Below the pieces are notes generated by a model. It saw only the letters and a program-made list of their open reading frames with translations, made no database searches and was not told the DNA's origin. Positions 6,439 to 32,820 of a stretch of DNA of 64,000 nucleotides are shown here, one piece after another; position 1 is the first letter of the stretch; each line of letters opens with the position of its first letter. The DNA comes from Escherichia coli (lineage in GTDB: Bacteria; Pseudomonadota; Gammaproteobacteria; Enterobacterales; Enterobacteriaceae). The stretch lies in NCBI RefSeq assembly GCF_030013205.1, contig NZ_CP122648.1. One strand, written 5' to 3'. Position numbers and translations under genes: made by a program.

Positions 6439-7014
6439 GTGCAACGTGAAGATGTACTGGGAGAAGCCCTGAAATTATTAGAATTACAAGGGATTGCCAA
6501 CACCACGCTGGAGATGGTTGCTGAACGTGTGGATTATCCACTGGACGAGCTACGCCGCTTCTGGCCAGACAAAGAGGCAATCCTCTACGATGCGCTGCGT
6601 TATCTTAGCCAACAGATAGATGTCTGGCGTCGTCAGCTGATGCTGGACGAAACGCAAACCGCCGAACAAAAGTTGCTGGCACGTTATCAGGCGTTATCGG
6701 AGTGCGTTAAAAACAACCGCTATCCGGGCTGTCTGTTTATCGCTGCCTGTACGTTTTATCCCGATCCTGGCCACCCTATTCATCAACTGGCCGATCAGCA
6801 AAAAAGCGCGGCCTACGATTTCACCCACGAACTGTTAACCACACTGGAAGTTGACGATCCGGCGATGGTAGCAAAGCAGATGGAACTGGTGCTGGAAGGC
6901 TGTTTAAGCCGAATGCTGGTGAATCGTAGCCAGGCGGATGTCGACACCGCACATCGGCTGGCGGAAGATATCCTGCGCTTCGCCCGCTGCCGCCAGGGTG
7001 GTGCTTTGACCTGA
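6439..7014 (+). CDS. yjdC: TetR-family transcriptional regulator YjdC
   Basis: 191 aa from GTG 6439 with SD ggagg; N-terminal HTH. Confidence 0.85.
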
Positions 7015-7120
7015 CAGAAACACAGAAAAGAAGCGATTTGCCGCAATCTTAAGCAGTTGAATCGCTTTTACTGAAATTAGGTTGACGAGATGTGCAGATT
7101 ACGGTTTAATGCGCCCCGTT

Positions 7121-7196
7121 GCCCGGATAGCTCAGTCGGTAGAGCAGGGGATTGAAAATCCCCGTGTCCTTGGTTCGATTCCGAGTCCGGGCACCA
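7121..7196 (+). tRNA. pheU: tRNA-Phe (anticodon GAA)
   Basis: 76-nt cloverleaf sequence GCCCGGATAGCTCAGTCGGTAGAGCAGGGGATTGAAAATCCCC...CCA; anticodon loop TTGAAAA. Confidence 0.95.
7174..7196 (+). repeat. attL core (3' end of pheU), duplicated at 38277-38298
   Basis: 23 nt ttcgattccgagtccgggcacca; 22 of these recur (one G fewer) at 38277. Confidence 0.75.
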
Positions 7197-7208
7197 AATT
7201 CATATCAA

Positions 7209-7236
7209 CGGACCTCCACGGAGGTCCGTTTTTCGT
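7209..7236 (+). terminator. terminator hairpin downstream of pheU
   Basis: ggacctcc-acg-gaggtcc followed by T5. Confidence 0.6.
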
Positions 7237-7393
7237 TTCAGAACACCATGATTTAAGTGTTCTTCCTCCAAATCAATTCTACCGAACTCAACCAAATTCT
7301 CCCCACATCAACCTCATTGTGTGGGTATAATTGCGGGTATACCCCAGTTCGACAGAATTTATACCCTCTTTAACGCATTCAGAAGGCTGAACT

Positions 7394-8656
7394 ATGGCAC
7401 TGACTGACGCAAAAATCCGGGCTGCAAAGCCCACTGACAAGGCTTATAAACTCACTGACGGGGCCGGCATGTTCCTGCTGGTTCATCCTAATGGTTCCCG
7501 TTACTGGCGTCTCCGCTATCGTATTCTGGGTAAGGAGAAGACTCTGGCACTTGGTGTGTATCCAGAAGTTTCTCTCTCCGAAGCTCGTACAAAACGGGAT
7601 GAGGCCCGAAAACTGATTTCAGAGGGGATTGACCCTTGCGAACAGAAAAGAGCTAAAAAAGTTGTCCCTGATTTACAGCTCTCTTTTGAACATATTGCAC
7701 GACGCTGGCATGCCAGTAATAAACAATGGGCACAATCACACAGCGATAAAGTACTCAAAAGCCTCGAGACACACGTTTTCCCCTTTATCGGCAACCGGGA
7801 TATCACAACACTCAGTACCCCGGACCTGCTTATCCCTGTTCGTGCTGCAGAAGCTAAACAAATTTATGAAATCGCCAGTCGTCTGCAGCAAAGAATATCT
7901 GCTGTAATGCGTTATGCCGTACAGTCTGGCATCATCAGATATAACCCGGCTCTGGATATGGCTGGTGCATTGACCACGGTAAAACGCCAGCATCGCCCTG
8001 CACTGGATCTTTCACGCCTGCCTGAACTTCTGTCGCGTATTGACGGTTATAAAGGCCAGCCTGTCACCCGACTGGCAGTTATGCTGAATTTACTGGTTTT
8101 TATTCGTTCCAGTGAACTCAGATACGCCCGCTGGTCTGAAATTGATATTGACAATGCCATGTGGACTATTCCAGCCGAACGCGAACCTCTGCCTGGCGTA
8201 AAATTCTCACACCGGGGCTCCAAGATGCGAACACCACATCTTGTGCCACTCAGCAAACAGGCTGTAGCCATACTGGCAGAACTACAGACATGGGCTGGTG
8301 AAAATGGTCTGATCTTTACGGGAGCACATGACCCGCATAAACCAATCAGTGAAAATACTGTAAATAAAGCCCTGAGGGTGATGGGGTATGACACAACCCA
8401 GGATGTCTGTGGCCATGGATTCCGTGCGATGGCATGTAGTGCGCTGATCGAATCAGGTTTGTGGTCCCGCGATGCTGTTGAACGTCAGATGAGCCATCAG
8501 GAACGTAACGGTGTACGCGCTGCGTATATCCATAAAGCCGAACATCTGGAAGAACGCCGGCTGATGCTACAGTGGTGGGCAGATTTTCTGAATGCGAACA
8601 GAGAGAAATGTATCAGTCCGTTTGATTATGCAAAGATCAACAATCCATTAAAATAG
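7394..8656 (+). CDS. int: P4-type tyrosine integrase
   Basis: 420 aa directly downstream of tRNA-Phe; N-terminal MALTDAKIRAAKP... and C-terminal HGFRAMA...RAAY tyrosine-recombinase signature. Confidence 0.9.
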   Translation: MALTDAKIRAAKPTDKAYKLTDGAGMFLLVHPNGSRYWRLRYRILGKEKTLALGVYPEVSLSEARTKRDEARKLISEGIDPCEQKRAKKVVPDLQLSFEHIARRWHASNKQWAQSHSDKVLKSLETHVFPFIGNRDITTLSTPDLLIPVRAAEAKQIYEIASRLQQRISAVMRYAVQSGIIRYNPALDMAGALTTVKRQHRPALDLSRLPELLSRIDGYKGQPVTRLAVMLNLLVFIRSSELRYARWSEIDIDNAMWTIPAEREPLPGVKFSHRGSKMRTPHLVPLSKQAVAILAELQTWAGENGLIFTGAHDPHKPISENTVNKALRVMGYDTTQDVCGHGFRAMACSALIESGLWSRDAVERQMSHQERNGVRAAYIHKAEHLEERRLMLQWWADFLNANREKCISPFDYAKINNPLK

Positions 8657-8819
8657 TAATAATCCCCGGGCAAAATGCCCGGGGTACTTTGAATGACTAT
8701 TTTTCTTTGGGCGTGATGAAGAAGATTGATGGTAAGACAAATTACTCCCGACTCTTACGTATTTTCATGGAAAGAAATCCCCCAATATCATCCATCGGGA
8801 TCGAGTAATAACCTGTAAT

Positions 8820-9005
8820 ATGCTGCAGGTTCCGACAGCGGCGGCAAATATGCAGCACATATTGTGCTCACTGATCGGCACCTGCCGTCTGAACAATGCG
8901 GAGTCAGAAAAATTGCTGCATTACGTCACAGATCATATGCAGGACTGGTCGGCAAACCGGGTACGCGATCTGTTGCCCTGGAAAGTTGATCTGACCTCTC
9001 AGTAA
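8820..9005 (+). pseudogene. IS66-family transposase C-terminal fragment
   Basis: 61-aa ORF ...LIGTCRLN...LLPWKVDL matches the C-terminus of the larger IS66-like fragment at 9730-10251. Confidence 0.5.
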
Positions 9006-9069
9006 ATATCAATACGGTTCTGGCGAGCCGCTTACAATCGAACTGGGATACAGGGAGATAAAACAGACG

Positions 9070-9429
9070 ATGCAACTGAGCAGGCTGACGCTGAGAAGTA
9101 AAAAGCCGGAGCTTGTGGAGCAAGAGCTGTGGGGTGTCTTACTGGCTTATAATCTGGTGAGATATCAGATGATTAAAATGGCGGAACATCTGAAAGGTTA
9201 CTGGCCGAATCAACTGAGTTTCTCAGAATCATGCGGAATGGTGATGAGAATGCTGATGACATTGCAGGGCGCTTCACCGGGACATATACCGGAGCTGATG
9301 CGCGATCTTGCAAGTATGGGACAACTTGTGAAATTACCGACAATAAGGGAAAGGGCCTTCCCGAGAGTGGTAAAGGAGAGGCCCTGGAAATACCCCACAG
9401 CCCCGAAAAAGAGCCAGTCAGTTGCTTAA
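9070..9429 (+). pseudogene. DDE transposase C-terminal fragment (IS4-like)
   Basis: 119-aa truncated ORF resembling a DDE transposase C-terminal region; no N-terminal catalytic part. Confidence 0.4.
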
Positions 9430-9753
9430 CTGACTGGCATTAGGCCGCCGGGGGCGTTTTTTTACCACCGGGACTTCGGACATAACGGTGTTTTCAGTAA
9501 GTACGACAGGTACTGTGGAGGCACTCCCGTAAAGACGGGCATCAAGTTCCCGCTCCGACATACCTGCGGGCAGAGGCCATGAAAGGCCAGCTTTTCGGAA
9601 GCGCACGAACATACCACAAACTGTTGATTTTGGTACGCCCAGGCGACGTCCGGCCACAATCCGTGGTAAATGTTCTTCAAAGTGAAGACGTAAAGCTTCA
9701 GTGATCCAGGTCCGGTATTCCATACGATAGTGTCCATTAAAAATGATGGACAT
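9418..9753 (-). pseudogene. transposase N-terminal HTH fragment (family uncertain)
   Basis: 111-aa ORF with HTH-like segment (RRLGVPKSTV), embedded among IS debris. Confidence 0.3.
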
Positions 9754-10251
9754 TATTTTTGTGGAGCCGGAGGAAACACACCAGACTGTTTAAATGAGCC
9801 GGTTACCGAAATACGCGGGTTGCCGGTGTCTGAACGCCTGGCGGTCAGGCAAATGCAGAGTAAACCGCTACTGACTTCCCTGTATAAGCTGATGCAGGAG
9901 AAAGAACACACATTATCGAAAAAATGCCGTCTGAGAGATGCGTTCCGGTATATCCGGAAGCACTGGGTTGCGTTGTGCAACTTCTGTGATGATGGTCTGG
10001 CGGAGGCGGATAATAATGCCGCGGAAAGAGCGCTTCGTGCAGTCTGTCTCGGAAAGAAAAACTTTATGTTCTTCGGCAGCGATCACGGCGGCGAGCGAGG
10101 AGCACTGTTGTACGGGCTGATCGGCACCTGCCGACTGAACGGTATCGATCCGGAAGCGTATCTGCGCCATATCCTGAGCGTACTGCCGGAATGGCCTTCC
10201 AACCGAGTTGACGAACTCCTGCCATGGAACGTAGTACTCACCAATAAATAA
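9730..10251 (+). pseudogene. IS66-family transposase (TnpC) C-terminal fragment
   Basis: 173-aa ORF ending ...GIDPEAYLRHILSVLPEWPSNRVDELLPWN; gtaagcg-type end motif about 40 bp downstream. Confidence 0.6.
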
Positions 10252-10385
10252 GCGTCAATACGGCACTCCGTTAACGCTTACGTTTAAGTCATAAAGCCAT
10301 GCAGAACGCTCACCTCCCAAGATCTTGGTTTTTATAAGGTGTAATGATAATGTAAGCTAATGTTTCACATGCCAAAGGAAACACC

Positions 10386-11714
10386 ATGAGCCACAGGGAA
10401 TTGTTCAGCGAATTTCTTGAAAATTTGAATCTTGACCTCAAACAGGCAAAAAAGATCAGCTATCACTATCGAAAAATAACCAAGTCATTAAATCTTGCGT
10501 TCAGAGGAACGAGTTCCCGGGTAGCAAACCGCTTGAAAGTGGGGTCAGTAGGCAGACATACCGCAATAAAAGGCATATCCGATCTGGATATGCTTTATAT
10601 TATGCCCCCCAATCAGTATGAATATTATAACCGTAAGGATAATGGTCAGTCTGCATTGCTTACAGATGTCAGAAACATTCTGGCGGAAGAATATCCTGAC
10701 CAGACTGTGAAAAAGGACAGACTGGTTGTTCAGATCATCTTTAAAAACTTTTATGTCGAGGTTCAACCTGTATTCAGACAGGATGATGACAGCTTTAAAT
10801 TCCCTGAAAGCTATAATGGAGGAGCATGGCGCATTACAAAACCTCTTCACGAAAAGGCGGCCATGACCGCATTTTCGCGAGATAAATCCAATAATCTGCG
10901 CAAGCTGTGTAAAATGATCAGAGCCTGGAAGAACCTGCATGGCGTCAATATGGGTGGCTTACTGATAGACACACTAGCGTATCGCTTTCTTTCATCAACA
11001 TCAGATTATGACAATACCGGAAATGGCAGCCTGGGAGCCCTCGCCAGAGACTTTTTTGAATATCTGTCAAATGAGGAGAGAAAGGAAAGGTATCTCGCGT
11101 TAGGCAGTAATCAGCATGTACGTGTTAAATCTCCCTGGTTTGGCCGGGCAGCGAAACACGCGTATGAATTATGTTGTGATGCCTTAGACGCTGAGGGGGC
11201 TGCCAGTGAAAATGACCGCTGGCGCAAAGTGTTCGGACGAGCCTTCCCCAGACGTAAAGTGGGTATTATGGAAGCCCGTCTTGGTCTGGAATCGCATGCG
11301 GCAGATGCTGTTCCCTGGACCGATACCGAAGAGTTTATAGAGGATAAATATCCGGTGGATATCAGGTACTCACTCAACCTTGACTGTACCGTAACCCAGG
11401 ATGGTTTCCCTCCCAGAAGCCTGAGGGAGATGCTTACCAGAAGATTCCGCCTCTCCGCTCGAAAATCTCTCCTTTTCCGGGCAGACTTGACAGAAATGGA
11501 GGCAGAGGAACCCTACACCGTTATGTGGAAGGTACTGAACGTGGGTGACGAAGCACGCAGAAGAAATATGATCCGGGGACAAATCGTTTCGGACGGCGGC
11601 TACTGTACGAAGAAAGAAACTACCGACTTCCGCGGAGATCACATGGTAGAATGCTATGTGATAAAAAATGAGGTTGTGGTTGCCCGGGCCCAGATTGAAG
11701 TTCCCATAAGCTGA
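10386..11714 (+). CDS. Pol-beta-fold nucleotidyltransferase with C-terminal extension (SMODS/CD-NTase-like plus AGS-C-like region)
   Basis: ATG with SD aaagga; GS-x10-SDLD nucleotidyltransferase signature (VGSVGRHTAIKGISDLD); about 150-aa C-terminal extension; AT-rich gene. Confidence 0.6.
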   Translation: MSHRELFSEFLENLNLDLKQAKKISYHYRKITKSLNLAFRGTSSRVANRLKVGSVGRHTAIKGISDLDMLYIMPPNQYEYYNRKDNGQSALLTDVRNILAEEYPDQTVKKDRLVVQIIFKNFYVEVQPVFRQDDDSFKFPESYNGGAWRITKPLHEKAAMTAFSRDKSNNLRKLCKMIRAWKNLHGVNMGGLLIDTLAYRFLSSTSDYDNTGNGSLGALARDFFEYLSNEERKERYLALGSNQHVRVKSPWFGRAAKHAYELCCDALDAEGAASENDRWRKVFGRAFPRRKVGIMEARLGLESHAADAVPWTDTEEFIEDKYPVDIRYSLNLDCTVTQDGFPPRSLREMLTRRFRLSARKSLLFRADLTEMEAEEPYTVMWKVLNVGDEARRRNMIRGQIVSDGGYCTKKETTDFRGDHMVECYVIKNEVVVARAQIEVPIS

Positions 11715-11721
11715 GGTTTTT

Positions 11722-12297
11722 ATGACGCAATCAGAGATGCTGAAATTAATCGCCCGACATGGTTATAACGTTGGATTTGGCGCTAAGAAAAACTTTGCCA
11801 CCTATGATCTGATTTGTAAGGCATCCGGTTGGATTAGCTTTATTTCTCTTGCTGTCGGTGTGTTCGCCCTTTTTATTCCTGAGCTGGCCACAAACGTCAT
11901 TTCCGCGATATTAATTATATTTGGTGTTGCTACAATGTACATTCAGTTTTATGACTCGGAAAAGCAGAGTTATGAAAGTGCGGGGATTGAGCAGACCAAA
12001 ATTTTTAATGAACTTGAAGTCATCTACCGCAACGTAAAAAGCGATGCAAACTTTGACTATCAGCGTACACAACAATCCATCGACGCTATCATGTCCCGGT
12101 TTTACGGCACGGTCATCAGCAAACAGATCTTCGGAAGTAACTGGTACGCACATTATAAATTTTACTGTGAATTTGAAAAAGCATGGGTTGAAGAAGAGCT
12201 GAACCTGACACTGAAGGACAAAATCCCGCTTTCGCTCTGCTTTCTCGCCGGTCTGGCGATCATTTTTACTATAGCTGTCATCTGGAAAACGCCCTGA
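11722..12297 (+). CDS. small multi-TM membrane protein (SLATT-like predicted effector)
   Basis: 191 aa, starts 8 nt after the nucleotidyltransferase stop with SD gagg; two adjacent N-proximal hydrophobic helices and one C-terminal helix. Confidence 0.55.
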   Translation: MTQSEMLKLIARHGYNVGFGAKKNFATYDLICKASGWISFISLAVGVFALFIPELATNVISAILIIFGVATMYIQFYDSEKQSYESAGIEQTKIFNELEVIYRNVKSDANFDYQRTQQSIDAIMSRFYGTVISKQIFGSNWYAHYKFYCEFEKAWVEEELNLTLKDKIPLSLCFLAGLAIIFTIAVIWKTP

Positions 12298-12848
12298 TGC
12301 TGCAGCCAATGAAAAATTCAGCAAGCTGACTGTCAAATATGCGATGTATAGCCGGTATCACCATCCAGTGTACGTTCTATAAGGGGGGCGCTTGGAAAAC
12401 GGGTAGAGTCAAGATGTGGCGCGGTAATTTTACAGGTCAGGCATATCTGTTGCCGCCTCTTTCGATTGGCGGTGCCTTACTGTCCTGACCATAAATCCTG
12501 TTTCCACACCCCGCTCATCGAAGCGGACATGCGCTTCTAACACATCCGGCTCTCGGACAGAATCATGCCTTCGCCCACGGAAACCTCTGCGGGAGCTTCG
12601 GTGCATATTTTCATGGAAGGGGATCACCCAATAACTTCCATCGAGATCGGGTCATAACGGCCAATCCGTGATCGAATAGAGCGGAATACGCACTCTGACG
12701 AACTGCTTACATTTAAACTAATTACAAACTATATAAATCCGCCTTGCTCATTCACAGGGTAGATATATTCTTACTTTTAATTTTATGTGTAATTAACTGA
12801 TGACGAAAAATGAATTGAACTGTAAATGCATATCTAAGTTTTTCATTC

Positions 12849-13574
12849 TTATGATGTACATAATACCTTAAAATTATCAACTAGCTGAGCATTAACCTCC
12901 ATCTGACTAATCCCCCATAATGCGGCTAACTGTTTCTCTGCAATCCCACTATCCCATGGCATTAGTGGGTCATTACGAAACTTAGCAAATGGCCCATCTG
13001 TTTCTGTAAGAATGCGTGATTTGGGTATTTTCAAAACTAAGGCCTTACCCTTTATTGTATCGAGCATAGCAGGCCCCACTGAGAACCAGCATCCTAAATC
13101 AATTGCCCTTTCAAGCTGCTTAGGTGTTCCAGTGAACCAATGCAATATTGCCACCCCATCGATATTTTCAATCTCATCAAGCACCGCTGATGCACTTCCC
13201 CGACTATGGATAGTCATAATCTTGCCACCAGCCCGATTTACACTGTTGAGAATGTGTCGGAACACTTTCAATTGAATATCCCAATGTTCTTTAAATCCCT
13301 GTCCACCATCAAGCCCTATTTCCCCTACATACTTAGTTTCCGAAAGCAATGAATCAAACAGGTCTAACTCATGCGATCTTTGATGCGCGATTTGAGGATG
13401 TAGCCCAAGAGCAGTTCGGATTCGTTGACTTTCTTTAGCCAATAAAGAAGTACCATGCCATGCTTTAGGTGTTGTTGTCACCGACAGAATATAAGTCCCT
13501 CGACGTTTACTTTCTTCAGCCACGAGGTCTGGCCGAGGATATAAGTCTAGATGACAGTGCATATCGATGCTCAT
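12849..13574 (-). CDS. qatD: TatD-family metal-dependent DNase (QatD)
   Basis: 241 aa; N-terminal HxH metal motif (MSIDMHCHLDLYP); start ATG overlaps qatC stop (ATGA). Confidence 0.8.
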   Translation of the reverse strand: MSIDMHCHLDLYPRPDLVAEESKRRGTYILSVTTTPKAWHGTSLLAKESQRIRTALGLHPQIAHQRSHELDLFDSLLSETKYVGEIGLDGGQGFKEHWDIQLKVFRHILNSVNRAGGKIMTIHSRGSASAVLDEIENIDGVAILHWFTGTPKQLERAIDLGCWFSVGPAMLDTIKGKALVLKIPKSRILTETDGPFAKFRNDPLMPWDSGIAEKQLAALWGISQMEVNAQLVDNFKVLCTS

Positions 13575-14890
13575 ACTATGTTCTCACTCAGTAAATAGCT
13601 TTCAACCTCATCCAGGCCATCCTTAAATACTTGCTTGAAATTATCAAATTCTGCCGTAGGCAAAGGGCCACTTTTGGCAATCCATGTACCTATTTTCAAA
13701 GTCGATTTCTGCGTGATCGCAATCCTAAGGGCGATCAGGTCGTCCCTGCGATCTATTTCATTCATTACTTTAGCTAAGGACTGGAAAATATATTCAACAT
13801 CTCTACTAATTCCCCCTGCATGAAGTGATGCTCGTCGAATGATACACGGTATACATACCCCACATTGCTGCCCCATTCGTTTCCAATGACTGCAGGATAC
13901 TGTACTTTCCACAATTTTAGATAAGAGCTGCTTATTTGAACATTCGGAGATCATTTTTCCTTTTGTCTTAAACTGATATGGATTGATTATTTGACAAGAA
14001 ATACCGAGCGCATCAAAGATCTTTTGTATGCTCGTAATAAAATGTGGATGTGTTGTTCGTGTGCTCAGCGAACCTATCCGCCGTGGAGTAAGTGGTGCAT
14101 TTAATGAGATAAATCCATTTTCAGGTACGAACAAATCAATCTTTTCTTGTTGAGATATCTCTTGTACGGCACAAGCACCTACGGCCGCAAAGGCAAGAAA
14201 ATTGAGGCTACGAGTTCGCATCGTAATATCAGTCACGCCTTGATAAATGTGTGGGTCAGCATTAATCTCAAAGCGCGAAAATTGGCCACTTAATTTTTCA
14301 GCAATCTGATCTTGACGAGACTTATCCCCCTTATAAGCATGACTAACCAAAAGTGGAGCGCGCCCTGCAGCCAGAAGATCTATTGCACCAATAGCTGAAT
14401 CCAGACCTCCTGAAAATAGGCTGACACAGTCAAGCCCTTTTAGCTTAATCAGACGATGCCTTGAATGCTGGCTATAAGGCTCTGGCGGTGCATAACCATC
14501 GTCACAAAATTCGAAATCCCAGATGTCTCCACTAAGAAAATGCAAAGCACTCTCAAGTTCTTTCTTTAGACTAATCCATCTGGATGGTTCATGAAGGGGG
14601 AGTCGTAACGACAATTGGCGGGTCCAACCATCCTCGGAACTTTCACGCTGAACGAAAGTATCTGCTGCAGTTACTGCTAATGCAACACTCAGAAAATCCA
14701 TGACCTTAGCTGGAAGCTGTACTCCCAAACGTCTGATCCGATCAATCGCAGGATTCCCGATAACAGATATATCTCCGCGCCTCTGACCACTTAATCCATA
14801 TAGCTGAACAGGTAACACTTTCTCACTTGCTGGCGGCAAATGGTGATGTTTATGATGGAAAACTAATTGTGTCACTGGTATGCCTCCCAT
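13571..14890 (-). CDS. qatC: QueC-like PP-loop ATPase (QatC)
   Basis: 439 aa; PP-loop SGGLDS; C-terminal Cys cluster CSHW...CGVCIPC as in QueC. Confidence 0.8.
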   Translation of the reverse strand: MGGIPVTQLVFHHKHHHLPPASEKVLPVQLYGLSGQRRGDISVIGNPAIDRIRRLGVQLPAKVMDFLSVALAVTAADTFVQRESSEDGWTRQLSLRLPLHEPSRWISLKKELESALHFLSGDIWDFEFCDDGYAPPEPYSQHSRHRLIKLKGLDCVSLFSGGLDSAIGAIDLLAAGRAPLLVSHAYKGDKSRQDQIAEKLSGQFSRFEINADPHIYQGVTDITMRTRSLNFLAFAAVGACAVQEISQQEKIDLFVPENGFISLNAPLTPRRIGSLSTRTTHPHFITSIQKIFDALGISCQIINPYQFKTKGKMISECSNKQLLSKIVESTVSCSHWKRMGQQCGVCIPCIIRRASLHAGGISRDVEYIFQSLAKVMNEIDRRDDLIALRIAITQKSTLKIGTWIAKSGPLPTAEFDNFKQVFKDGLDEVESYLLSENIV

Positions 14891-15624
14891 TCTTGCCAGG
14901 CCTCAATAATGGCCTGACGTTCAATTTTTACCATTTGGTTTCGTGTGAACGATCTTATGTTACCGGCAAGTTTTGGTGCCATATGTTTATCAACAACAAC
15001 TTTAATCAATTCCCGGAGTTCAATTTCTGCATGAATTGCCTTTGAAGGTGTATCTGCTTTGTTCCATGCCCTATTAGAATCCATTACCATCTGAAGGAAA
15101 ATACTTTCCGCTAGATAACCAATCATTGTGTCAACAATCACACCATCAGTTATTTTTTGAGGATCGAAAATTTCTACGCCATCAAGAGCCTCCACTAAAG
15201 CATGGTTCATGGCCGCACAGATCTTTTCTGAGTCACCATCCTGTGATGTTAAAGCTTGAGCAATAGTTGATATTGCTATTTCGCATGGAAGGCCTGCCAA
15301 ACTGCCCAAATCGATGCTTGGTTCTCCGGGAGCCGAAGGCATTCCCACTAAAGCCCCAAATAATTCGGCCCCAGCTTGCGTGACACTCCCTAATCGCCGA
15401 GCAGCGTTACTGCTCCCTCCGGAGGCTTTTCGCGCGTAGTGCCCTATGGCTTTTCTGAAATCTGCTCGATTTCCATTTGATACCGCATTTCCCAACGATT
15501 CTCGAAATGGCGCAAACCTCCTTTCTTGCGGCGAGGGTAACGGTTGCTGTGGCTGATCATCAGCCCATGGTGGAACCAGCGGAGAGCCACCTCCTGGACC
15601 TTTACTTGATTGTGATGTTCCCAT
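14872..15624 (-). CDS. qatB: QatB (function unknown)
   Basis: 250 aa Gly/Pro-rich protein between the KAP ATPase and QueC-like genes; start overlaps qatA stop by 1 nt, 3' end overlaps qatC by 19 nt. Confidence 0.65.
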   Translation of the reverse strand: MGTSQSSKGPGGGSPLVPPWADDQPQQPLPSPQERRFAPFRESLGNAVSNGNRADFRKAIGHYARKASGGSSNAARRLGSVTQAGAELFGALVGMPSAPGEPSIDLGSLAGLPCEIAISTIAQALTSQDGDSEKICAAMNHALVEALDGVEIFDPQKITDGVIVDTMIGYLAESIFLQMVMDSNRAWNKADTPSKAIHAEIELRELIKVVVDKHMAPKLAGNIRSFTRNQMVKIERQAIIEAWQEWEAYQ

Positions 15625-17408
15625 TAAGCGTCCTTATTCCATTGTTCATCTTTTAATGCTGCAGTCATCCACGCTGGTCGTTTCATCCCCAACTGTAATT
15701 CCTGTAGATAACGAATTAATATGCTGGCTGCATCTGTTGAGTAGCGGGCCAACAGACATGCGCCGGAAAAGCCTCTGGGCTTACGATCCCAATCTGATAC
15801 CTGCCGTAACTGGTTAATTAAACCTTCCATTACAGGTATTTGCTCCTCACGAGGAAGTGCTTTCAAAAGGTTTTCTGCTGTAGGAGAACTAGTGTTTTTC
15901 AATTCAATTAGTGCATTTAGTACTTCCCGTCCAGATGGCGATAAACCAACCACATATGCACCTATTGGCATAGTTTCTCGGGACAGATATATGGCGGCCC
16001 TTAAGTCAATCCCACCAAGACGAGGTTCAAGTTGGGCCCATTGACTGATGAAAGATTTAGTCGTTGGACTATCAGTCCATGTCTTTGGTGCATCAGTAGG
16101 TATTTGACCGCCATTATCGTCAAGCTGTTTAAGTATCTGGGGAACACCTTGTTCAATATCCACGAGATGATATAAATCAGCGGTGCCATCCACTCCAACA
16201 CAGCGTTCAAAAATTACTAGCTTAGTAATAATTGCTTCATCCAAAGGCATTGCTCGTCGCTTCGCAATTTGAGATCGCATTTTCACAACATTCAACAAGC
16301 GTTTAACGATCCTGGGATTACCATGAATAATTGGAGAGTTGGCTAAAATGGGAGCAATACGGTCAGCACGCGCAAACGCCAGCGCGAGGTTGCTATCATC
16401 CGCTTCACCAGTCATTTTTAAGGCCTCCTGACGTGAGATTGGTTCATCTTTCCAGGATTGCTGTAACGCCTTCTCTAAGCCCTCACGGAGCATAGTTATT
16501 TTTTCGCCTTCTAAGCCATGTTCAATGGCATAAAGCATGAACAGATACGAACGGATCTCACGGACCCCAGCCTTAGGCACCCGAATAGGAACCTGGATTA
16601 GCTTATCCAGATAATCTATTTGATGGCGCTGTGATGCCCCTTTGAAGTAATCAGCCACAGAAGAGCGAATCATGTCCTCATCTGCTGCAATAATAAAGGC
16701 TGTATTAGTCAAGAAAAGGAATAGCCTGATAGCTTCAAGTGTATGGATAGCATTGGCAGGGAGACAGCGGTCTAGGTTATCTATTACCACAATGAGTGGC
16801 TTTCCAAGTTCTTCTAGAATTTCCCCATATTCCTTACGAAAGGCATCAATCTGCTGAGGGGGGCTTTTTTTTGTTTGTGGTTTAATCAAACCACAAGCAG
16901 TTTCTTTACCTTCTTTAGCTATATTGCCTAAAGCCTCATACTCTTCCTGACTCTGGATGCCATCGGTGATATTTCTTAATGCACCAATCCCCCTAGAAAG
17001 CAAACCGCCAGTAGGTAATCCTGCCATTAAAGCTGTACCCTCAGCTAGTAATCCCATAGCTCTAAAACCATCAACTCGACTAAGGAGTCTCTTAGTTTTT
17101 GATATAAGGGTAGAATTACCTTCAGCAGCTTTTGTCAATTCTGTAGCGATGACTTCAAGAAGTGCGGCACGGGCGTCGTCGTACCCCTGATAGAGCCAAG
17201 AGTCAAAATTGATAACAATCCAATCTTTGTCGTCTTGCTCAAGTTTTTGCTCTATCAGTTTTAACAGAGAGGATTTACCTGCCCCCCAGTTTCCAAAAAT
17301 TCCGATAGATACTGGTAACATATCTTTCGTGGTAAGTACATCCACGGCTAACTGAGATACTTCACCAAAATTTAGGTAGTCTTCTGATGACTCTTTGTCT
17401 GACCACAT
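15624..17408 (-). CDS. qatA: KAP-family P-loop NTPase (QatA)
   Basis: 594 aa; Walker A GNWGAGKSS near N-terminus. Confidence 0.8.
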   Translation of the reverse strand: MWSDKESSEDYLNFGEVSQLAVDVLTTKDMLPVSIGIFGNWGAGKSSLLKLIEQKLEQDDKDWIVINFDSWLYQGYDDARAALLEVIATELTKAAEGNSTLISKTKRLLSRVDGFRAMGLLAEGTALMAGLPTGGLLSRGIGALRNITDGIQSQEEYEALGNIAKEGKETACGLIKPQTKKSPPQQIDAFRKEYGEILEELGKPLIVVIDNLDRCLPANAIHTLEAIRLFLFLTNTAFIIAADEDMIRSSVADYFKGASQRHQIDYLDKLIQVPIRVPKAGVREIRSYLFMLYAIEHGLEGEKITMLREGLEKALQQSWKDEPISRQEALKMTGEADDSNLALAFARADRIAPILANSPIIHGNPRIVKRLLNVVKMRSQIAKRRAMPLDEAIITKLVIFERCVGVDGTADLYHLVDIEQGVPQILKQLDDNGGQIPTDAPKTWTDSPTTKSFISQWAQLEPRLGGIDLRAAIYLSRETMPIGAYVVGLSPSGREVLNALIELKNTSSPTAENLLKALPREEQIPVMEGLINQLRQVSDWDRKPRGFSGACLLARYSTDAASILIRYLQELQLGMKRPAWMTAALKDEQWNKDA

Positions 17409-17539: not shown

Positions 17540-18742
17540 CTATTTTTTAAAGAATGAAATAAGCTTTCTTATCCCAGTCCATATTTTCCTATCAGAATCC
17601 GAAGGGTTAAATTCGCTCTTGTCAAAATCAGCAACCTCAGCAACCTCAGCAACCTCAGCAACCTCAGCAACCTCAGCAACCTCAGCAACCTCAGCAACCT
17701 CAGCAACCTCAGCAACCTCAGCAACCTCAGCAACCTCAGCAACCTCAGCAACCTCAGCAAGGTTTATTCTATTTTGATGAGCTGTCAAATGTTCTTTGTT
17801 AATTTCATCTCTAATTAGCTGTTCTTTTTCTATGCTGTAGTTTTTGTCATTATAAGTCACATCAAAATCATCTAAGAAAACGATATAAATCAATTTAAAA
17901 AAACTAGTCTTAAATAAAAAACTATCGCACTCATCAGGAAAACCAAAAAAGAAAACATTAAGATATTTGGTTGCTTTGCGCTTGTCTTTTAGTCCATTAT
18001 AATACTTATTTGCTTCTGCTCTTTGTTTTTCATACTCACTACAGAAAAAACTCTTTTTACTTTCATCCCATTCTGAAGCATCAATTTCAAGTTTATATGC
18101 TTGTTTGGTACCTTTCTTTCTGGCTAAAAAAGTAAGGTAATATCTATTCGAATTTATCTCCAGCCGTATATTAGATTGAATTTTACCAAAATAAATTGCT
18201 GGCTTATTATATCTAATTCCTTCTTTATAGATGATTAGTTGAAAAGTATCTTTATAAGTTCTAACTCCATAAGGGGGAATTGATAATGGTTCATAGAGAT
18301 TATCTCCATTAATGTAGTAGTCTACTACCGGTTTGATGCTTGAAGATGACACAGGGTGTACTTTACCTCCCAAATCTTTTTCATCATCTCGCGTCTGTTT
18401 GATAATTCTTCTGCCAGAAGAGTCGTAATTTCTTTCAGACACATCAAGTTTCAGAAGAGATATAGCTAATGCCGGTGGTGAATTATGCTTTTTATTATTC
18501 TTTGAGTTACACTTATTTTTACTCTTAGGATCATGAATCTTACATCCCGGCCTATGAGTCTCTTTATATCGAAAGTATGATTGATTTAAATTTATTTCTT
18601 TGAAGCTACATGGAGTAGCGGGTATCCTACATTTGTCATACGGGCATTCAAAAGTGGTTGTTCGTATATAAAGATCATCCATTTCCCGAAGATCATGACC
18701 ATGAACAATTTCACCACTAACAGAATCTCTTGCTATTGTCAC
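17540..18742 (-). CDS. hypothetical protein with N-terminal Cys cluster and C-terminal (Ala-Glu-Val)n repeat
   Basis: 400 aa; GTG start preceded by perfect SD AAGGAG at 5-nt spacing; C33/C38/C45/C67 with flanking His; AT-rich; co-directional with qatA 131 bp downstream. Confidence 0.6.
   Translation of the reverse strand: MTIARDSVSGEIVHGHDLREMDDLYIRTTTFECPYDKCRIPATPCSFKEINLNQSYFRYKETHRPGCKIHDPKSKNKCNSKNNKKHNSPPALAISLLKLDVSERNYDSSGRRIIKQTRDDEKDLGGKVHPVSSSSIKPVVDYYINGDNLYEPLSIPPYGVRTYKDTFQLIIYKEGIRYNKPAIYFGKIQSNIRLEINSNRYYLTFLARKKGTKQAYKLEIDASEWDESKKSFFCSEYEKQRAEANKYYNGLKDKRKATKYLNVFFFGFPDECDSFLFKTSFFKLIYIVFLDDFDVTYNDKNYSIEKEQLIRDEINKEHLTAHQNRINLAEVAEVAEVAEVAEVAEVAEVAEVAEVAEVAEVAEVAEVAEVADFDKSEFNPSDSDRKIWTGIRKLISFFKK
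17628..17760. repeat. perfect 9-bp tandem repeat (gcaacctca), about 14.8 copies, in-frame within the 400-aa CDS
   Basis: Direct reading of sequence; encodes the AEV repeat on the minus strand. Confidence 0.97.
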
Positions 18743-18980
18743 ACAATCTCCTTTGATAAAAATTAATAGATTCTAATTTCATACCAAGGCTAATTTAAAT
18801 AAAGGCTATTTAAGAGAAAAACAAGTCAGCCTGACAGACATATCCCCTCCCATGGCAATATGCCGCTATTTCGCGTTTTTTTTCACGCCATAATGCGTTT
18901 CAAGGTAGCGAATATCTTCGATTGCCCATGGTGTGCGCATTCTTTTGGGTTTATTTTCCATTACCATGTTTTATCAGCCA

Positions 18981-19190
18981 TCATGGCAGCCTCTCCGGTT
19001 TGCCAGCGTGTTCCACCTGATAACGATTAATCAGCTGATTCAGTGCCATTTCAGCCTGTTTTTGCTGCTGTTCACTGCCATTCTGGTTACGGGCTTCATC
19101 ATAGCGACGTAACTGCTCTTCCGCCGGGATATGCCGGTTAAAAGCCTGCATGATGCCAAACACCTCTGTTTTCAGTTCACTGACCGTCAT
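18981..19190 (-). CDS. small hypothetical protein
   Basis: 69 aa from internal ATG with SD gggga (track ORF 84 aa); Gln/Glu-rich helical sequence. Confidence 0.4.
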   Translation of the reverse strand: MTVSELKTEVFGIMQAFNRHIPAEEQLRRYDEARNQNGSEQQQKQAEMALNQLINRYQVEHAGKPERLP

Positions 19191-19950
19191 GTATTTTCCC
19201 CGCTGTTCATCCAGACGGTTCAGGCGCTCAGCCATCCGCGGCCTGAAGAGATAAAGGCGATAATAAAACAGACATCAGTGTCAGTGACAGCAAGGACGGA
19301 CAGCGCCGGAATAAGCTTTGTTCCTCAGCCCTCACGTTCCTGCAACATAATTTTCCAGCCAAACGAAAAACCTTTTATTCATGCCATACCAATAATCGCC
19401 AGCCTCCTGGCGATGCCTCCCACCATGTTTTGCAGTGGTACGCTACCGCCCTTCCGGTATTTACCCGCATCAACCGGTACCAGAATGCTGAGTAACAAAC
19501 CAGCTCAGAACTGACTGAATTTTGATCATTATAGAATAATGATCTGAACTGCAGCAATATAACAGATTTATCGATCGATATAACGCAAATGAACAGATCT
19601 TTATTCTGTCATATATCGCAAAAACAGCACATTACAAAATTTATAACCATAATTAATGGAAAAGTGCAGAAAATTATTCCACTGAATGCTTTTAATACAG
19701 TTAGTTAGCTAAAAAAATAGCAATTTTTGATTTCAGTCATTGAAAATTGCAATGCGTGACGATTCAACAGCATTTAAGTGAGTTTCAGGATATGGGAAGG
19801 ACATGAAAGGAGGAGCGCAATAAAATATACAGGAAGAAGGGGAAAATGTTTCGTAAAAACAGAAAATTAACAGCGCACATCAGGAAACTCAGTCTCCTGA
19901 TTCAGTGCTACCACATGAAAATTTAGTTAACTGTTACCGTACTAAAATTT

Positions 19951-32493: not shown

Positions 32494-32820
32494 TAATCAG
32501 GTCACTCCCCTTCAGGCCCCGGCCATCATGACCGGGGCTTTTTACTTTCAGGGAGCAACAGATATGCCTGGTTGTACATCACGTTTATTGCCCGAAGGCC
32601 CTTTTGCTGCCAAATGGCATCTGAATCGATCACAGTTTGACCGGTTATTACCCGATCCCGATGGGGTTATTGGGTGATCTCCTTCCATAAAAATACGCAG
32701 CTCGCCAGTGAAGGGCTTCTCAGACAATAAACGTCATTCATTTCATCGGTCAGGCCGCGTCTTCTCCGGGAGACGCGGCTTTTTCATTTATACCGCTAAC
32801 TCATTCATAAGGAGCAAATC

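What the first reader, a model, noticed from the sequence alone, without database searches (positions are those of the whole stretch)
8759..12659. Imperfect direct repeats bracket the IS debris plus nucleotidyltransferase/multi-TM cassette
A roughly 55-bp segment at 8759-8813 recurs at 12605-12659 at about 75-80 percent identity. The two copies enclose the IS fragments and the two-gene defence pair but not Qat. These could be recombination scars or site remnants marking the cassette as a separately acquired unit.
Basis: seen in the sequence. Interest (0 to 1): 0.35.

Follow-up and report, generated by a model that had tools for sequence, protein, structure and literature searches.

The report
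Leftover IS21-family insertion-sequence ends
The two similar ~55-bp stretches are real, but they are leftover left-end repeats of a common E. coli insertion sequence (IS21 family, ISEc12-like) at junctions of a patchwork genomic island, not a matched pair of sites delimiting the defence cassette, so the finding is ordinary.

Summary
Chance expectation is about 1e-7. A third copy lies inverted at 32644-32699.

All three copies match the first 57 bp of the IS21-family element ISEc12, that is its complete left terminal inverted repeat with two transposase-binding repeats. ISEc12 is present in thousands of places in E. coli. No copy has istA/istB behind it.

Copy A abuts the pheU-island integrase module and is followed by an IS66 fragment. 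Copy B truncates a group II intron fragment (12383-12601, minus strand) and is fused to the last 33 bp of another IS21-family element, ISSso4 (12660-12692).

The "nucleotidyltransferase/multi-TM pair" is a type I CBASS (CD-NTase plus SLATT 2TM effector). Comparison with IncX-type plasmids puts its module limits at 10282-12396. The left limit is an IS66 right end and the right limit is the intron's 3' end, not the repeats.

CBASS, copy B and Qat travel together in about 238 E. coli genomes; only about 46-61 of them carry copy A.

The repeats are therefore IS scars at module joints, both left ends in the same orientation, and not a functional pair. One oddity is unexplained: B and C share the same back-to-back hybrid architecture.

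The parts
8756..8812 (+). Copy A: solo left terminal inverted repeat (L-TIR, 57 bp) of an ISEc12-like IS21-family element. The tip is degenerate (TA instead of TG). There is no istA/istB behind it.
   Evidence: 47/57 identical to the ISEc12 L-TIR, 50/57 to a C-type copy (L008), 46/57 to copy B. Homology of the integrase module to another island (L009) stops at 8750, a few bp before the tip.
8813..8824 (.). 12 nt of unassigned sequence between copy A and the IS66 fragment.
   Evidence: ISEc12 similarity ends at 8812. IS66 (ISCro1-like) similarity starts at 8824/8825.
8825..9035 (+). 3' fragment (about 211 bp) of an ISCro1-like IS66-family element, including its right terminus ...GCTTAC.
   Evidence: 82-91% identity to the 3' ends of many annotated IS66/ISCro1 transposase genes. 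Annotated as a transposase pseudogene. Terminus read.
9037..10281 (.). Further IS debris: IS4-family transposase fragment 9037-9429 (+), IS66 tnpA fragment 9439-9753 (-), and IS66 transposase 3' fragment 9808-10251 with its right terminus at 10281 (+).
   Evidence: RefSeq annotation of the identical locus L001 (window = locus - 501). Terminus ...AACGCTTAC at 10281.
10282..12396 (+). Type I CBASS module: CD-NTase (SMODS + AGS-C) 10386-11714 and SLATT_6 2TM effector 11722-12297, with their own flanks.
   Evidence: 96.6% identical over exactly 10282-12396 to plasmid p54 (L011), and also present on pVE-V11-M (L014). On both plasmids it has neither the IS21 ends nor Qat. PADLOC cyclase E=9e-177 and 2TM effector E=2e-82; Pfam SMODS, AGS_C, SLATT_6.
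12383..12601 (-). Decayed 3' fragment of a group II intron: the last 39 bp of the ltrA reading frame plus domains V-VI. The intron's 3' end lies at about 12397 and its 5' side is cut off by copy B.
   Evidence: 95.9% identical to the intron of Buttiauxella plasmid pBTX_57. In that plasmid Rfam finds Intron_gpII and group-II-D1D4-4. In the window there is only a weak Intron_gpII match at 12403-12554 (17.3 bits, E=0.49).
12602..12658 (+). Copy B: solo L-TIR (57 bp, tip TG) of an ISEc12-like IS21-family element, containing two GATCN5ATAAC repeats (L1, L2).
   Evidence: 52/57 identical to the ISEc12 L-TIR. Motif scan.
12660..12692 (+). Terminal 33 bp (outermost repeat R1, tip ...ACGCA) of the right end of the IS21-family element ISSso4, joined to copy B through a single G at 12659.
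   Evidence: 33/33 identical to the right terminus of an intact ISSso4 that carries a 5-bp target duplication CTTAT (L010).
32608..32699 (-). Copy C: third ISEc12-like L-TIR (56 bp) + CG + 34 bp of an inverted ISSso4-like left-end repeat. It lies between the Ag43 and DUF932 genes and replaces the middle of a DUF905 gene.
   Evidence: Alignment with intact DUF905 alleles.
7121..8656 (+). Island anchor: tRNA-Phe (7121-7196) and a P4-type tyrosine integrase (7394-8656).
   Evidence: ARAGORN. Pfam Arm-DNA-bind_3, Phage_int_M, Phage_integrase. Annotation.
12849..17408 (-). Qat defence operon (qatD 12849-13574, qatC, qatB, and the KAP NTPase qatA ending at 17408), outside the repeat pair.
   Evidence: Annotation. 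PADLOC QatD E=6e-97.

Best explanation
The two copies, and a third at 32644-32699, are orphaned left terminal inverted repeats of ISEc12-like IS21-family insertion sequences. Each is the complete ~57-bp transposase (IstA) binding module, made of the tip plus the two direct repeats L1 and L2. Different but related elements once inserted (i) just downstream of the pheU-island integrase module (copy A) and (ii) into a group II intron that had itself invaded the 3' flank of a CBASS module (copy B). Their bodies were later lost through further IS insertions and IS-mediated deletions or recombination (IS66 and IS4 at A; ISSso4 at B), leaving only the outer ends. They therefore mark joints where blocks of this mosaic island were fused: A joins the integrase module to the IS debris, and B joins CBASS plus the intron fragment to the Qat block. 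They have no present function and do not act together. Shown here: identity with the IS end, the flank breakpoints, the module limits, and the distribution across genomes. Inferred: the order of events and the deletion mechanism.
For: 1. Both copies match only the first 57 bp of intact ISEc12 elements that carry istA/istB and a 5-bp target duplication. These elements are inserted in unrelated genes (lom, rhsB, plasmid backbones).
2. Identities are B 52/57, C 51/57 and A 47/57 to ISEc12, and A-B 46/57.
3. The motif GATCN5ATAAC occurs 5 times in the window, all within A, B and C, against 0.42 expected. This fits the two-repeat TIR architecture of the IS21 family: 55-bp TIRs with L1/L2, both repeats needed by IstA (PMC10122671).
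4. The left flanks break exactly at the tips. Integrase-module homology ends at 8750 and the group II intron homology ends at 12601.
5. To the right of A an IS66 3' fragment starts at 8825. To the right of B lies the exact 33-bp terminus of ISSso4.
6. The CBASS module limits of 10282-12396 come from plasmid comparison.
7. The block 10064-14000 is 99.8% identical in a different left context that lacks A (APEC O1, KFu014, ECO13). About 238 genomes carry CBASS-B-Qat, against 46-61 that also carry A.
Against: All three remnants are left ends, and all lose ISEc12 similarity at the same position (after ...ATAAC). Random decay of three independent insertions does not predict this. A has TA rather than TG at its tip. 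No parent element more than 91% identical to any copy was identified. No target-site duplications are available to prove the insertion events.
Confidence: 0.9

Rival explanations
1. Remnant of a composite transposon: two directly oriented ISEc12-like copies once flanked and mobilised the CBASS cassette, and A and B are their surviving left ends.
For: The two copies are in the same orientation and enclose the cassette. Composite transposons with direct IS copies exist (established knowledge, e.g. Tn9).
Against: A and B are only 46/57 identical, and each is closer to other sequences than to its partner. No right ends are present. Between A and the cassette lie four unrelated IS fragments, and between the cassette and B lies an intron fragment. 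CBASS-B-Qat occurs without A in roughly 180 or more genomes, and CBASS occurs alone on plasmids without either copy.
Confidence: 0.04
2. Site-specific recombination sites (attL/attR of a nested element, or integron attC sites) used to capture the cassette.
For: Direct repeats lie near a tyrosine integrase gene.
Against: The sequence is an IS21-family end present in thousands of unrelated contexts. The integrase is a P4-type enzyme next to tRNA-Phe, and such enzymes use the tRNA 3' end as their site (established knowledge). Neither copy folds into an attC-like hairpin as single-stranded DNA (z = +0.8 and -1.5). No IntI is present.
Confidence: 0.01
3. B and C, and perhaps A, are copies of a small non-autonomous IS21-family derivative of about 91 bp (a MITE-like element). 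It would have one ISEc12-type end and one ISSso4-type end, would have transposed to these sites, and could still be mobilised in trans.
For: Both B and C have two outward-facing tips (TG...CA) and the same architecture: 57-bp L-TIR, 1-2 nt of filler, then a 33-34-bp single terminal repeat. All three copies have distinct left flanks that begin exactly at the tip. IstA can pair two like or unlike ends in vitro (PMC10122671).
Against: There is no target-site duplication at B or C, and C replaces about 170 bp of its target rather than simply inserting. Only two or three genomic contexts exist among 5,426 E. coli genomes. The junction pattern is absent from 100,044 species-representative genomes. 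The right end carries only one repeat, whereas IstA needs two for integration. The right parts of B and C derive from different ISSso4 ends (24/35 identical).
Confidence: 0.07

Closest known systems
ISEc12 (IS21 family) left terminal inverted repeat
   Same: Positions 1-57 match: the tip TGCGTATTTTCATG..., the two GATCN5ATAAC repeats, and the end ...GGGTAATAAC. B is 91% identical, C 89% and A 82%.
   Different: No istA/istB, no right end and no target duplication. The sequences are 9-18% diverged, so the parents were relatives of ISEc12 rather than ISEc12 itself. A has a mutated tip (TA).
ISSso4 (IS21 family) right terminus
   Same: 12660-12692 is identical (33/33) to the last 33 bp of intact ISSso4.
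   Different: Only the outermost repeat is present. It is fused tail-to-tail to the ISEc12-like L-TIR and is not attached to an ISSso4 body.
Solo IS ends / IS scars in tRNA-associated genomic islands of E. coli
   Same: Truncated IS fragments of several families (IS66, IS4, IS21, IS911, IS3) sit at the joints between island modules.
   Different: Nothing essential; this is the ordinary case.
MITEs (non-autonomous derivatives with both IS ends)
   Same: B and C have two outward-facing IS21-family tips within 91-92 bp.
   Different: The ends come from two different IS21 subgroups. There is no TSD, very few contexts, one end has a single repeat, and nothing was found outside E. coli.

Membership tests
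IS21-family terminal inverted repeat (ISEc12-like) | Sequence similarity to the terminus of a curated IS21-family element that encodes istA and istB | tested here: met
   B 52/57, C 51/57 and A 47/57 to the left end of intact ISEc12 copies with annotated istA/istB.
IS21-family terminal inverted repeat (ISEc12-like) | TIR of about 55 bp built from two direct repeats (L1, L2) that bind IstA | tested here: met
   GATCN5ATAAC is present twice in B and C. In A it occurs once exactly and once in degenerate form. There are 5 hits in the window against 0.42 expected. The architecture is as described in PMC10122671.
IS21-family terminal inverted repeat (ISEc12-like) | Terminal dinucleotide 5'-TG (complement of the reactive CA) | tested here: inconclusive
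   B and C start with TG. A starts with TA, a degenerate tip.
Intact IS21-family insertion sequence | istA-istB genes between left and right TIRs, flanked by a 4-8 bp target duplication | tested here: not met
   No other ISEc12 homology exists in the window. Downstream of the copies lie an IS66 fragment, an ISSso4 tip and DUF905 DNA. No TSD is present. These are remnants, not elements.
Integron attC site | Imperfect palindrome that folds into a hairpin as single-stranded DNA, next to cassette ORFs and an IntI integrase | tested here: not met
   DNA folding z-scores are +0.83 and -1.52, so there is no hairpin. The integrase is P4-type (Arm-DNA-bind_3 / Phage_int_M / Phage_integrase).
Genomic-island att site of the tRNA-Phe integrase | Direct repeat of the 3' end of the tRNA gene | tested here: not met
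   The repeat is unrelated to the tRNA. The 23-nt tRNA-Phe 3' end occurs only once in the window, even allowing 3 mismatches.
MITE / mini-IS | Both element ends, a target-site duplication, and many copies in unrelated contexts with empty sites | tested here: not met
   Two outward tips are present in B and C, but there is no TSD. C replaces about 170 bp of target. Only 2-3 contexts exist in E. coli, and there were 0 hits in species-representative genomes.
Type I CBASS (the enclosed 'defence pair') | CD-NTase cyclase plus an effector, without ancillary Cap genes | tested here: met
   PADLOC cyclase PDLC00796 E=9e-177 and 2TM effector PDLC00695 E=2e-82. Pfam SMODS + AGS_C and SLATT_6. No further genes lie within 10282-12396.
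Group II intron (fragment 12383-12601) | Domain V/VI RNA structure and an intron-encoded reverse transcriptase | tested here: inconclusive
   95.9% identity to the 3' end of an annotated intron whose D1-D4 and D5-D6 are detected by Rfam. In the window itself the Intron_gpII match is only 17.3 bits (gathering score 40), and only 39 bp of ltrA remain.

The most novel reading that the evidence does not exclude
The shared back-to-back architecture of B and C may reflect a specific, undescribed reaction or product of IS21-family transposition, rather than coincidental decay. Each consists of a complete ISEc12-type L-TIR joined, after 1-2 filler nt, to exactly one terminal repeat of an ISSso4-type end. 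The junction falls at the same repeat boundaries on both partners, although the ISSso4-type parts derive from different ends. Possible sources are cross-family end pairing or a defined abortive-repair product.
Probability: 0.08. Interest if true: 0.35.

Novelty: already known. Interest (0 to 1): 0.1.

Why it matters
It matters little for biology in general. It shows that the apparent "cassette-bracketing repeats" are debris of a very common insertion sequence. It corrects the cassette boundaries: the CBASS module is 10282-12396, bounded by an IS66 end and a group II intron end. It also documents how this pheU island was assembled from modules (integrase, IS debris, a plasmid-type CBASS, intron remnant, Qat) by successive mobile-element insertions and deletions. 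For annotation, short imperfect direct repeats in defence islands should be checked against IS termini before being read as recombination sites.

Tried and rejected
1. attC/att reading: rejected by DNA folding, integrase typing and the tRNA 3'-end scan.
2. Rfam over 8600-12900 at E<=1 returned nothing. A narrower search recovered only a weak Intron_gpII hit, so the intron assignment rests on DNA homology.
3. A scan of 100,044 species-representative genomes for the L-TIR/ISSso4 junction pattern gave 0 hits. This gives no support for a dispersed MITE family.
4. I looked for E. coli genomes with this Qat but no CBASS and found none. CBASS without Qat occurs only on plasmids and as one chromosomal fragment.
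5. I looked for other contexts of A-like copies. All better-matching hits were C-type copies next to Ag43 or intact ISEc12 insertions.
6. I tried to explain the common junction position by microhomology or crossover within GATCGG. The sequences do not fit (read by eye).
7. Literature search on ISEc12 found nothing about solo ends.
8. Whether the 12 nt after copy A (8813-8824) are a remnant of an ISSso4-like repeat could not be decided: about 5-7 of 12 match, which is not significant.
Full report
**Observation**

They are the top direct repeat found in 7000-14000 (8760-8812 / 12606-12658, 83%). Placed in register with the element they derive from, the copies span 8756-8812 (A) and 12602-12658 (B), with 46/57 identical. 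The match cannot be chance. The binomial probability at one offset is 1.9e-17, about 8e-8 over all position pairs. Copy A never matched more than 33/56 positions in 200 shuffles of the window.

**Setting**

The window is identical to a chromosomal region of many porcine ETEC and other E. coli strains. The RefSeq annotation of one of them (window = locus - 501) and my own checks give the following layout:

| Coordinates | Strand | Feature |
|---|---|---|
| 7121-7196 | + | tRNA-Phe |
| 7394-8656 | + | P4-type tyrosine integrase |
| 8825-9035 | + | IS66-family 3' fragment |
| 9037-9429 | + | IS4 fragment |
| 9439-9753 | - | IS66 tnpA fragment |
| 9808-10281 | + | second IS66 3' fragment with its right terminus |
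| 10386-11714 | + | CD-NTase (SMODS + AGS-C) |
| 11722-12297 | + | SLATT_6 2TM effector |
| 12849-17408 | - | qatDCBA |

The CD-NTase and the SLATT effector together form a type I CBASS.

**What the repeat is**

Searching the region around B against 5,426 complete E. coli genomes gave thousands of roughly 57-bp hits at about 91% identity, on chromosomes and plasmids. They lie next to or inside unrelated genes (lom, gpJ, rhsB, repA regions and others). The region around A behaved the same way at 83-89%.

In three sampled cases the hit is the outer 57 bp of an intact ISEc12 (IS21 family). There it sits 193 bp upstream of istA-istB, and the element interrupts a gene. From one of these I delimited ISEc12 as 2,581 bp, TGCGTATTTT...AATACGCA, with a 5-bp target duplication.

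Only positions 1-57 of ISEc12 match the window, and they match three times: B (52/57), C (51/57) and A (47/57). Each copy carries the motif GATCN5ATAAC twice, though one occurrence in A is degenerate. The motif is found nowhere else in the window (5 hits against 0.42 expected).

This is the architecture described for IS21-family ends. A TIR of about 55 bp is made of two direct repeats (L1/L2 or R1/R2), and both repeats are required by the IstA transposase (PMC10122671). The shared sequence is therefore one complete left TIR of ISEc12-like elements.

None of the copies has istA/istB or a right end. They do not fold like attC sites, and they are unrelated to the tRNA-derived att site of the integrase.

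**What lies at each copy**

*Copy A.* Homology of the integrase module to another island stops at 8750, a few bp before A's tip. In that other island an IS911 end follows instead. After A come 12 unassigned nt and then the last ~211 bp of an ISCro1-like IS66 element. Sixty of the 61 genomes that have A carry this same junction.

*Copy B.* The 219 bp to its left (12383-12601, minus strand) are 95.9% identical to the 3' end of a group II intron on a Buttiauxella plasmid. This covers the last 39 bp of ltrA plus domains V-VI. In the window itself Rfam gives only a weak Intron_gpII hit (missed by the broader search). The homology ends exactly at B's tip, so an ISEc12-like element cut the intron. 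To the right of B there is one G and then 33 bp identical to the right terminus of ISSso4, another IS21-family element. A 156-bp AT-rich spacer and the end of qatD follow.

*Copy C.* This copy has the analogous structure: L-TIR + CG + 34 bp resembling the inverted left terminal repeat of ISSso4 (31/34). It replaces about 170 bp in the middle of a DUF905 gene between Ag43 and DUF932. Intact alleles of that gene exist in other strains.

**Do the repeats delimit the cassette?**

They do not, for four reasons.

- The CBASS pair occurs on IncX-type plasmids at 96.6% identity over exactly 10282-12396. There it is flanked by dqlB and HEPN genes, without IS21 ends or Qat.
- In the window, its left limit coincides with the right terminus of an IS66 fragment (10281). 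Its right limit coincides with the 3' end of the intron (about 12397).
- The block from 10064 through CBASS, the intron fragment, B, the ISSso4 tip and Qat is 99.8% identical in strains such as APEC O1, KFu014 and ECO13. In those strains the left neighbour is an IS3 element, and there is no integrase or copy A nearby.
- About 238 genomes carry CBASS-B-Qat. Only 46 carry the whole 7500-14000 arrangement and 61 carry copy A. No E. coli genome in the collection has this Qat without the CBASS.

A and B are both left ends in the same orientation, and they resemble each other less than B resembles ISEc12. They cannot form a transposable pair. A composite-transposon origin is unsupported.

**Most likely history (inferred)**

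1. A plasmid-type CBASS module acquired a group II intron about 100 bp downstream of its effector gene.
2. An ISEc12-like element inserted into the intron's ltrA.
3. Subsequent events involving an ISSso4 removed the IS body and the rest of the intron, and fused this block to the Qat block.
4. Independently, another ISEc12-like element inserted next to the integrase module. IS66/IS4 activity later removed all but its left TIR.

The copies are thus scars at module joints.

**Unexplained residue**

All three remnants are left TIRs that lose ISEc12 similarity at the same position. B and C share the same tail-to-tail junction positions, even though their ISSso4-type halves derive from different ends (24/35 identical to each other).

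I found no target duplications. The junction pattern gave no hits in 100,044 species-representative genomes. Only two or three contexts exist within E. coli. The ISSso4-type half has one repeat, whereas IstA needs two.

A mini-IS or a specific transposition by-product is therefore possible but unlikely. I record it as the most novel reading that is not excluded.

**Verdict**

The feature is ordinary IS debris of a known family, and interest is low.

Noticed in passing
window 12602-12692 and 32608-32699 (minus strand): Two 91-92-bp back-to-back hybrids. Each is a complete ISEc12-like L-TIR (57 bp) plus G or CG plus exactly one terminal repeat (33-34 bp) of an ISSso4-type end, with both tips facing outward. 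The junction is at the same positions in both, although the ISSso4-type halves come from different ends (R1 in B, inverted L1 in C). There is no target duplication.
   Followed up: partly
window 32494-32820: The C-type hybrid replaces about 170 bp of a DUF905 gene between Ag43 and DUF932. About 1,040 E. coli genomes have the hybrid allele over its full length, and many others keep an intact or frameshifted DUF905.
   Followed up: partly
window 12383-12601 (minus strand): Decayed 3' fragment of a group II intron (end of ltrA plus domains V-VI). It is 95.9% identical to an intron on Buttiauxella plasmid pBTX_57 and is inserted about 100 bp downstream of the CBASS effector gene. Plasmid p54 shows the intron-less site.
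   Followed up: yes
window 10282-17408; loci L005, L006, L020: In complete E. coli genomes this Qat operon is always physically linked to the type I CBASS through the same IS/intron scar (about 238 genomes). The CBASS alone occurs on IncX-type plasmids next to two HEPN-domain genes and dqlB type I toxins.
   Followed up: partly
window 7174-7196 versus the whole window: The 3' end of tRNA-Phe (the expected att core of the P4-type integrase) is not repeated anywhere in the 64-kb window, even with 3 mismatches. The island's far boundary is therefore either beyond the window or degenerate.
   Followed up: partly
window 8600-12900: A broad Rfam search at E<=1 missed the Intron_gpII match, which a narrower search then found at 17.3 bits. 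The intact Buttiauxella copy scores 38.8 bits, just under the gathering score of 40.
   Followed up: yes
window about 17540-19240 and beyond (from L001 annotation): Downstream of Qat, the annotation shows a hypothetical gene and a truncated VasL-domain (T6SS) pseudogene, followed by DUF4222 and zinc-ribbon genes. This is further evidence that the island is a mosaic of fragments.
   Followed up: no
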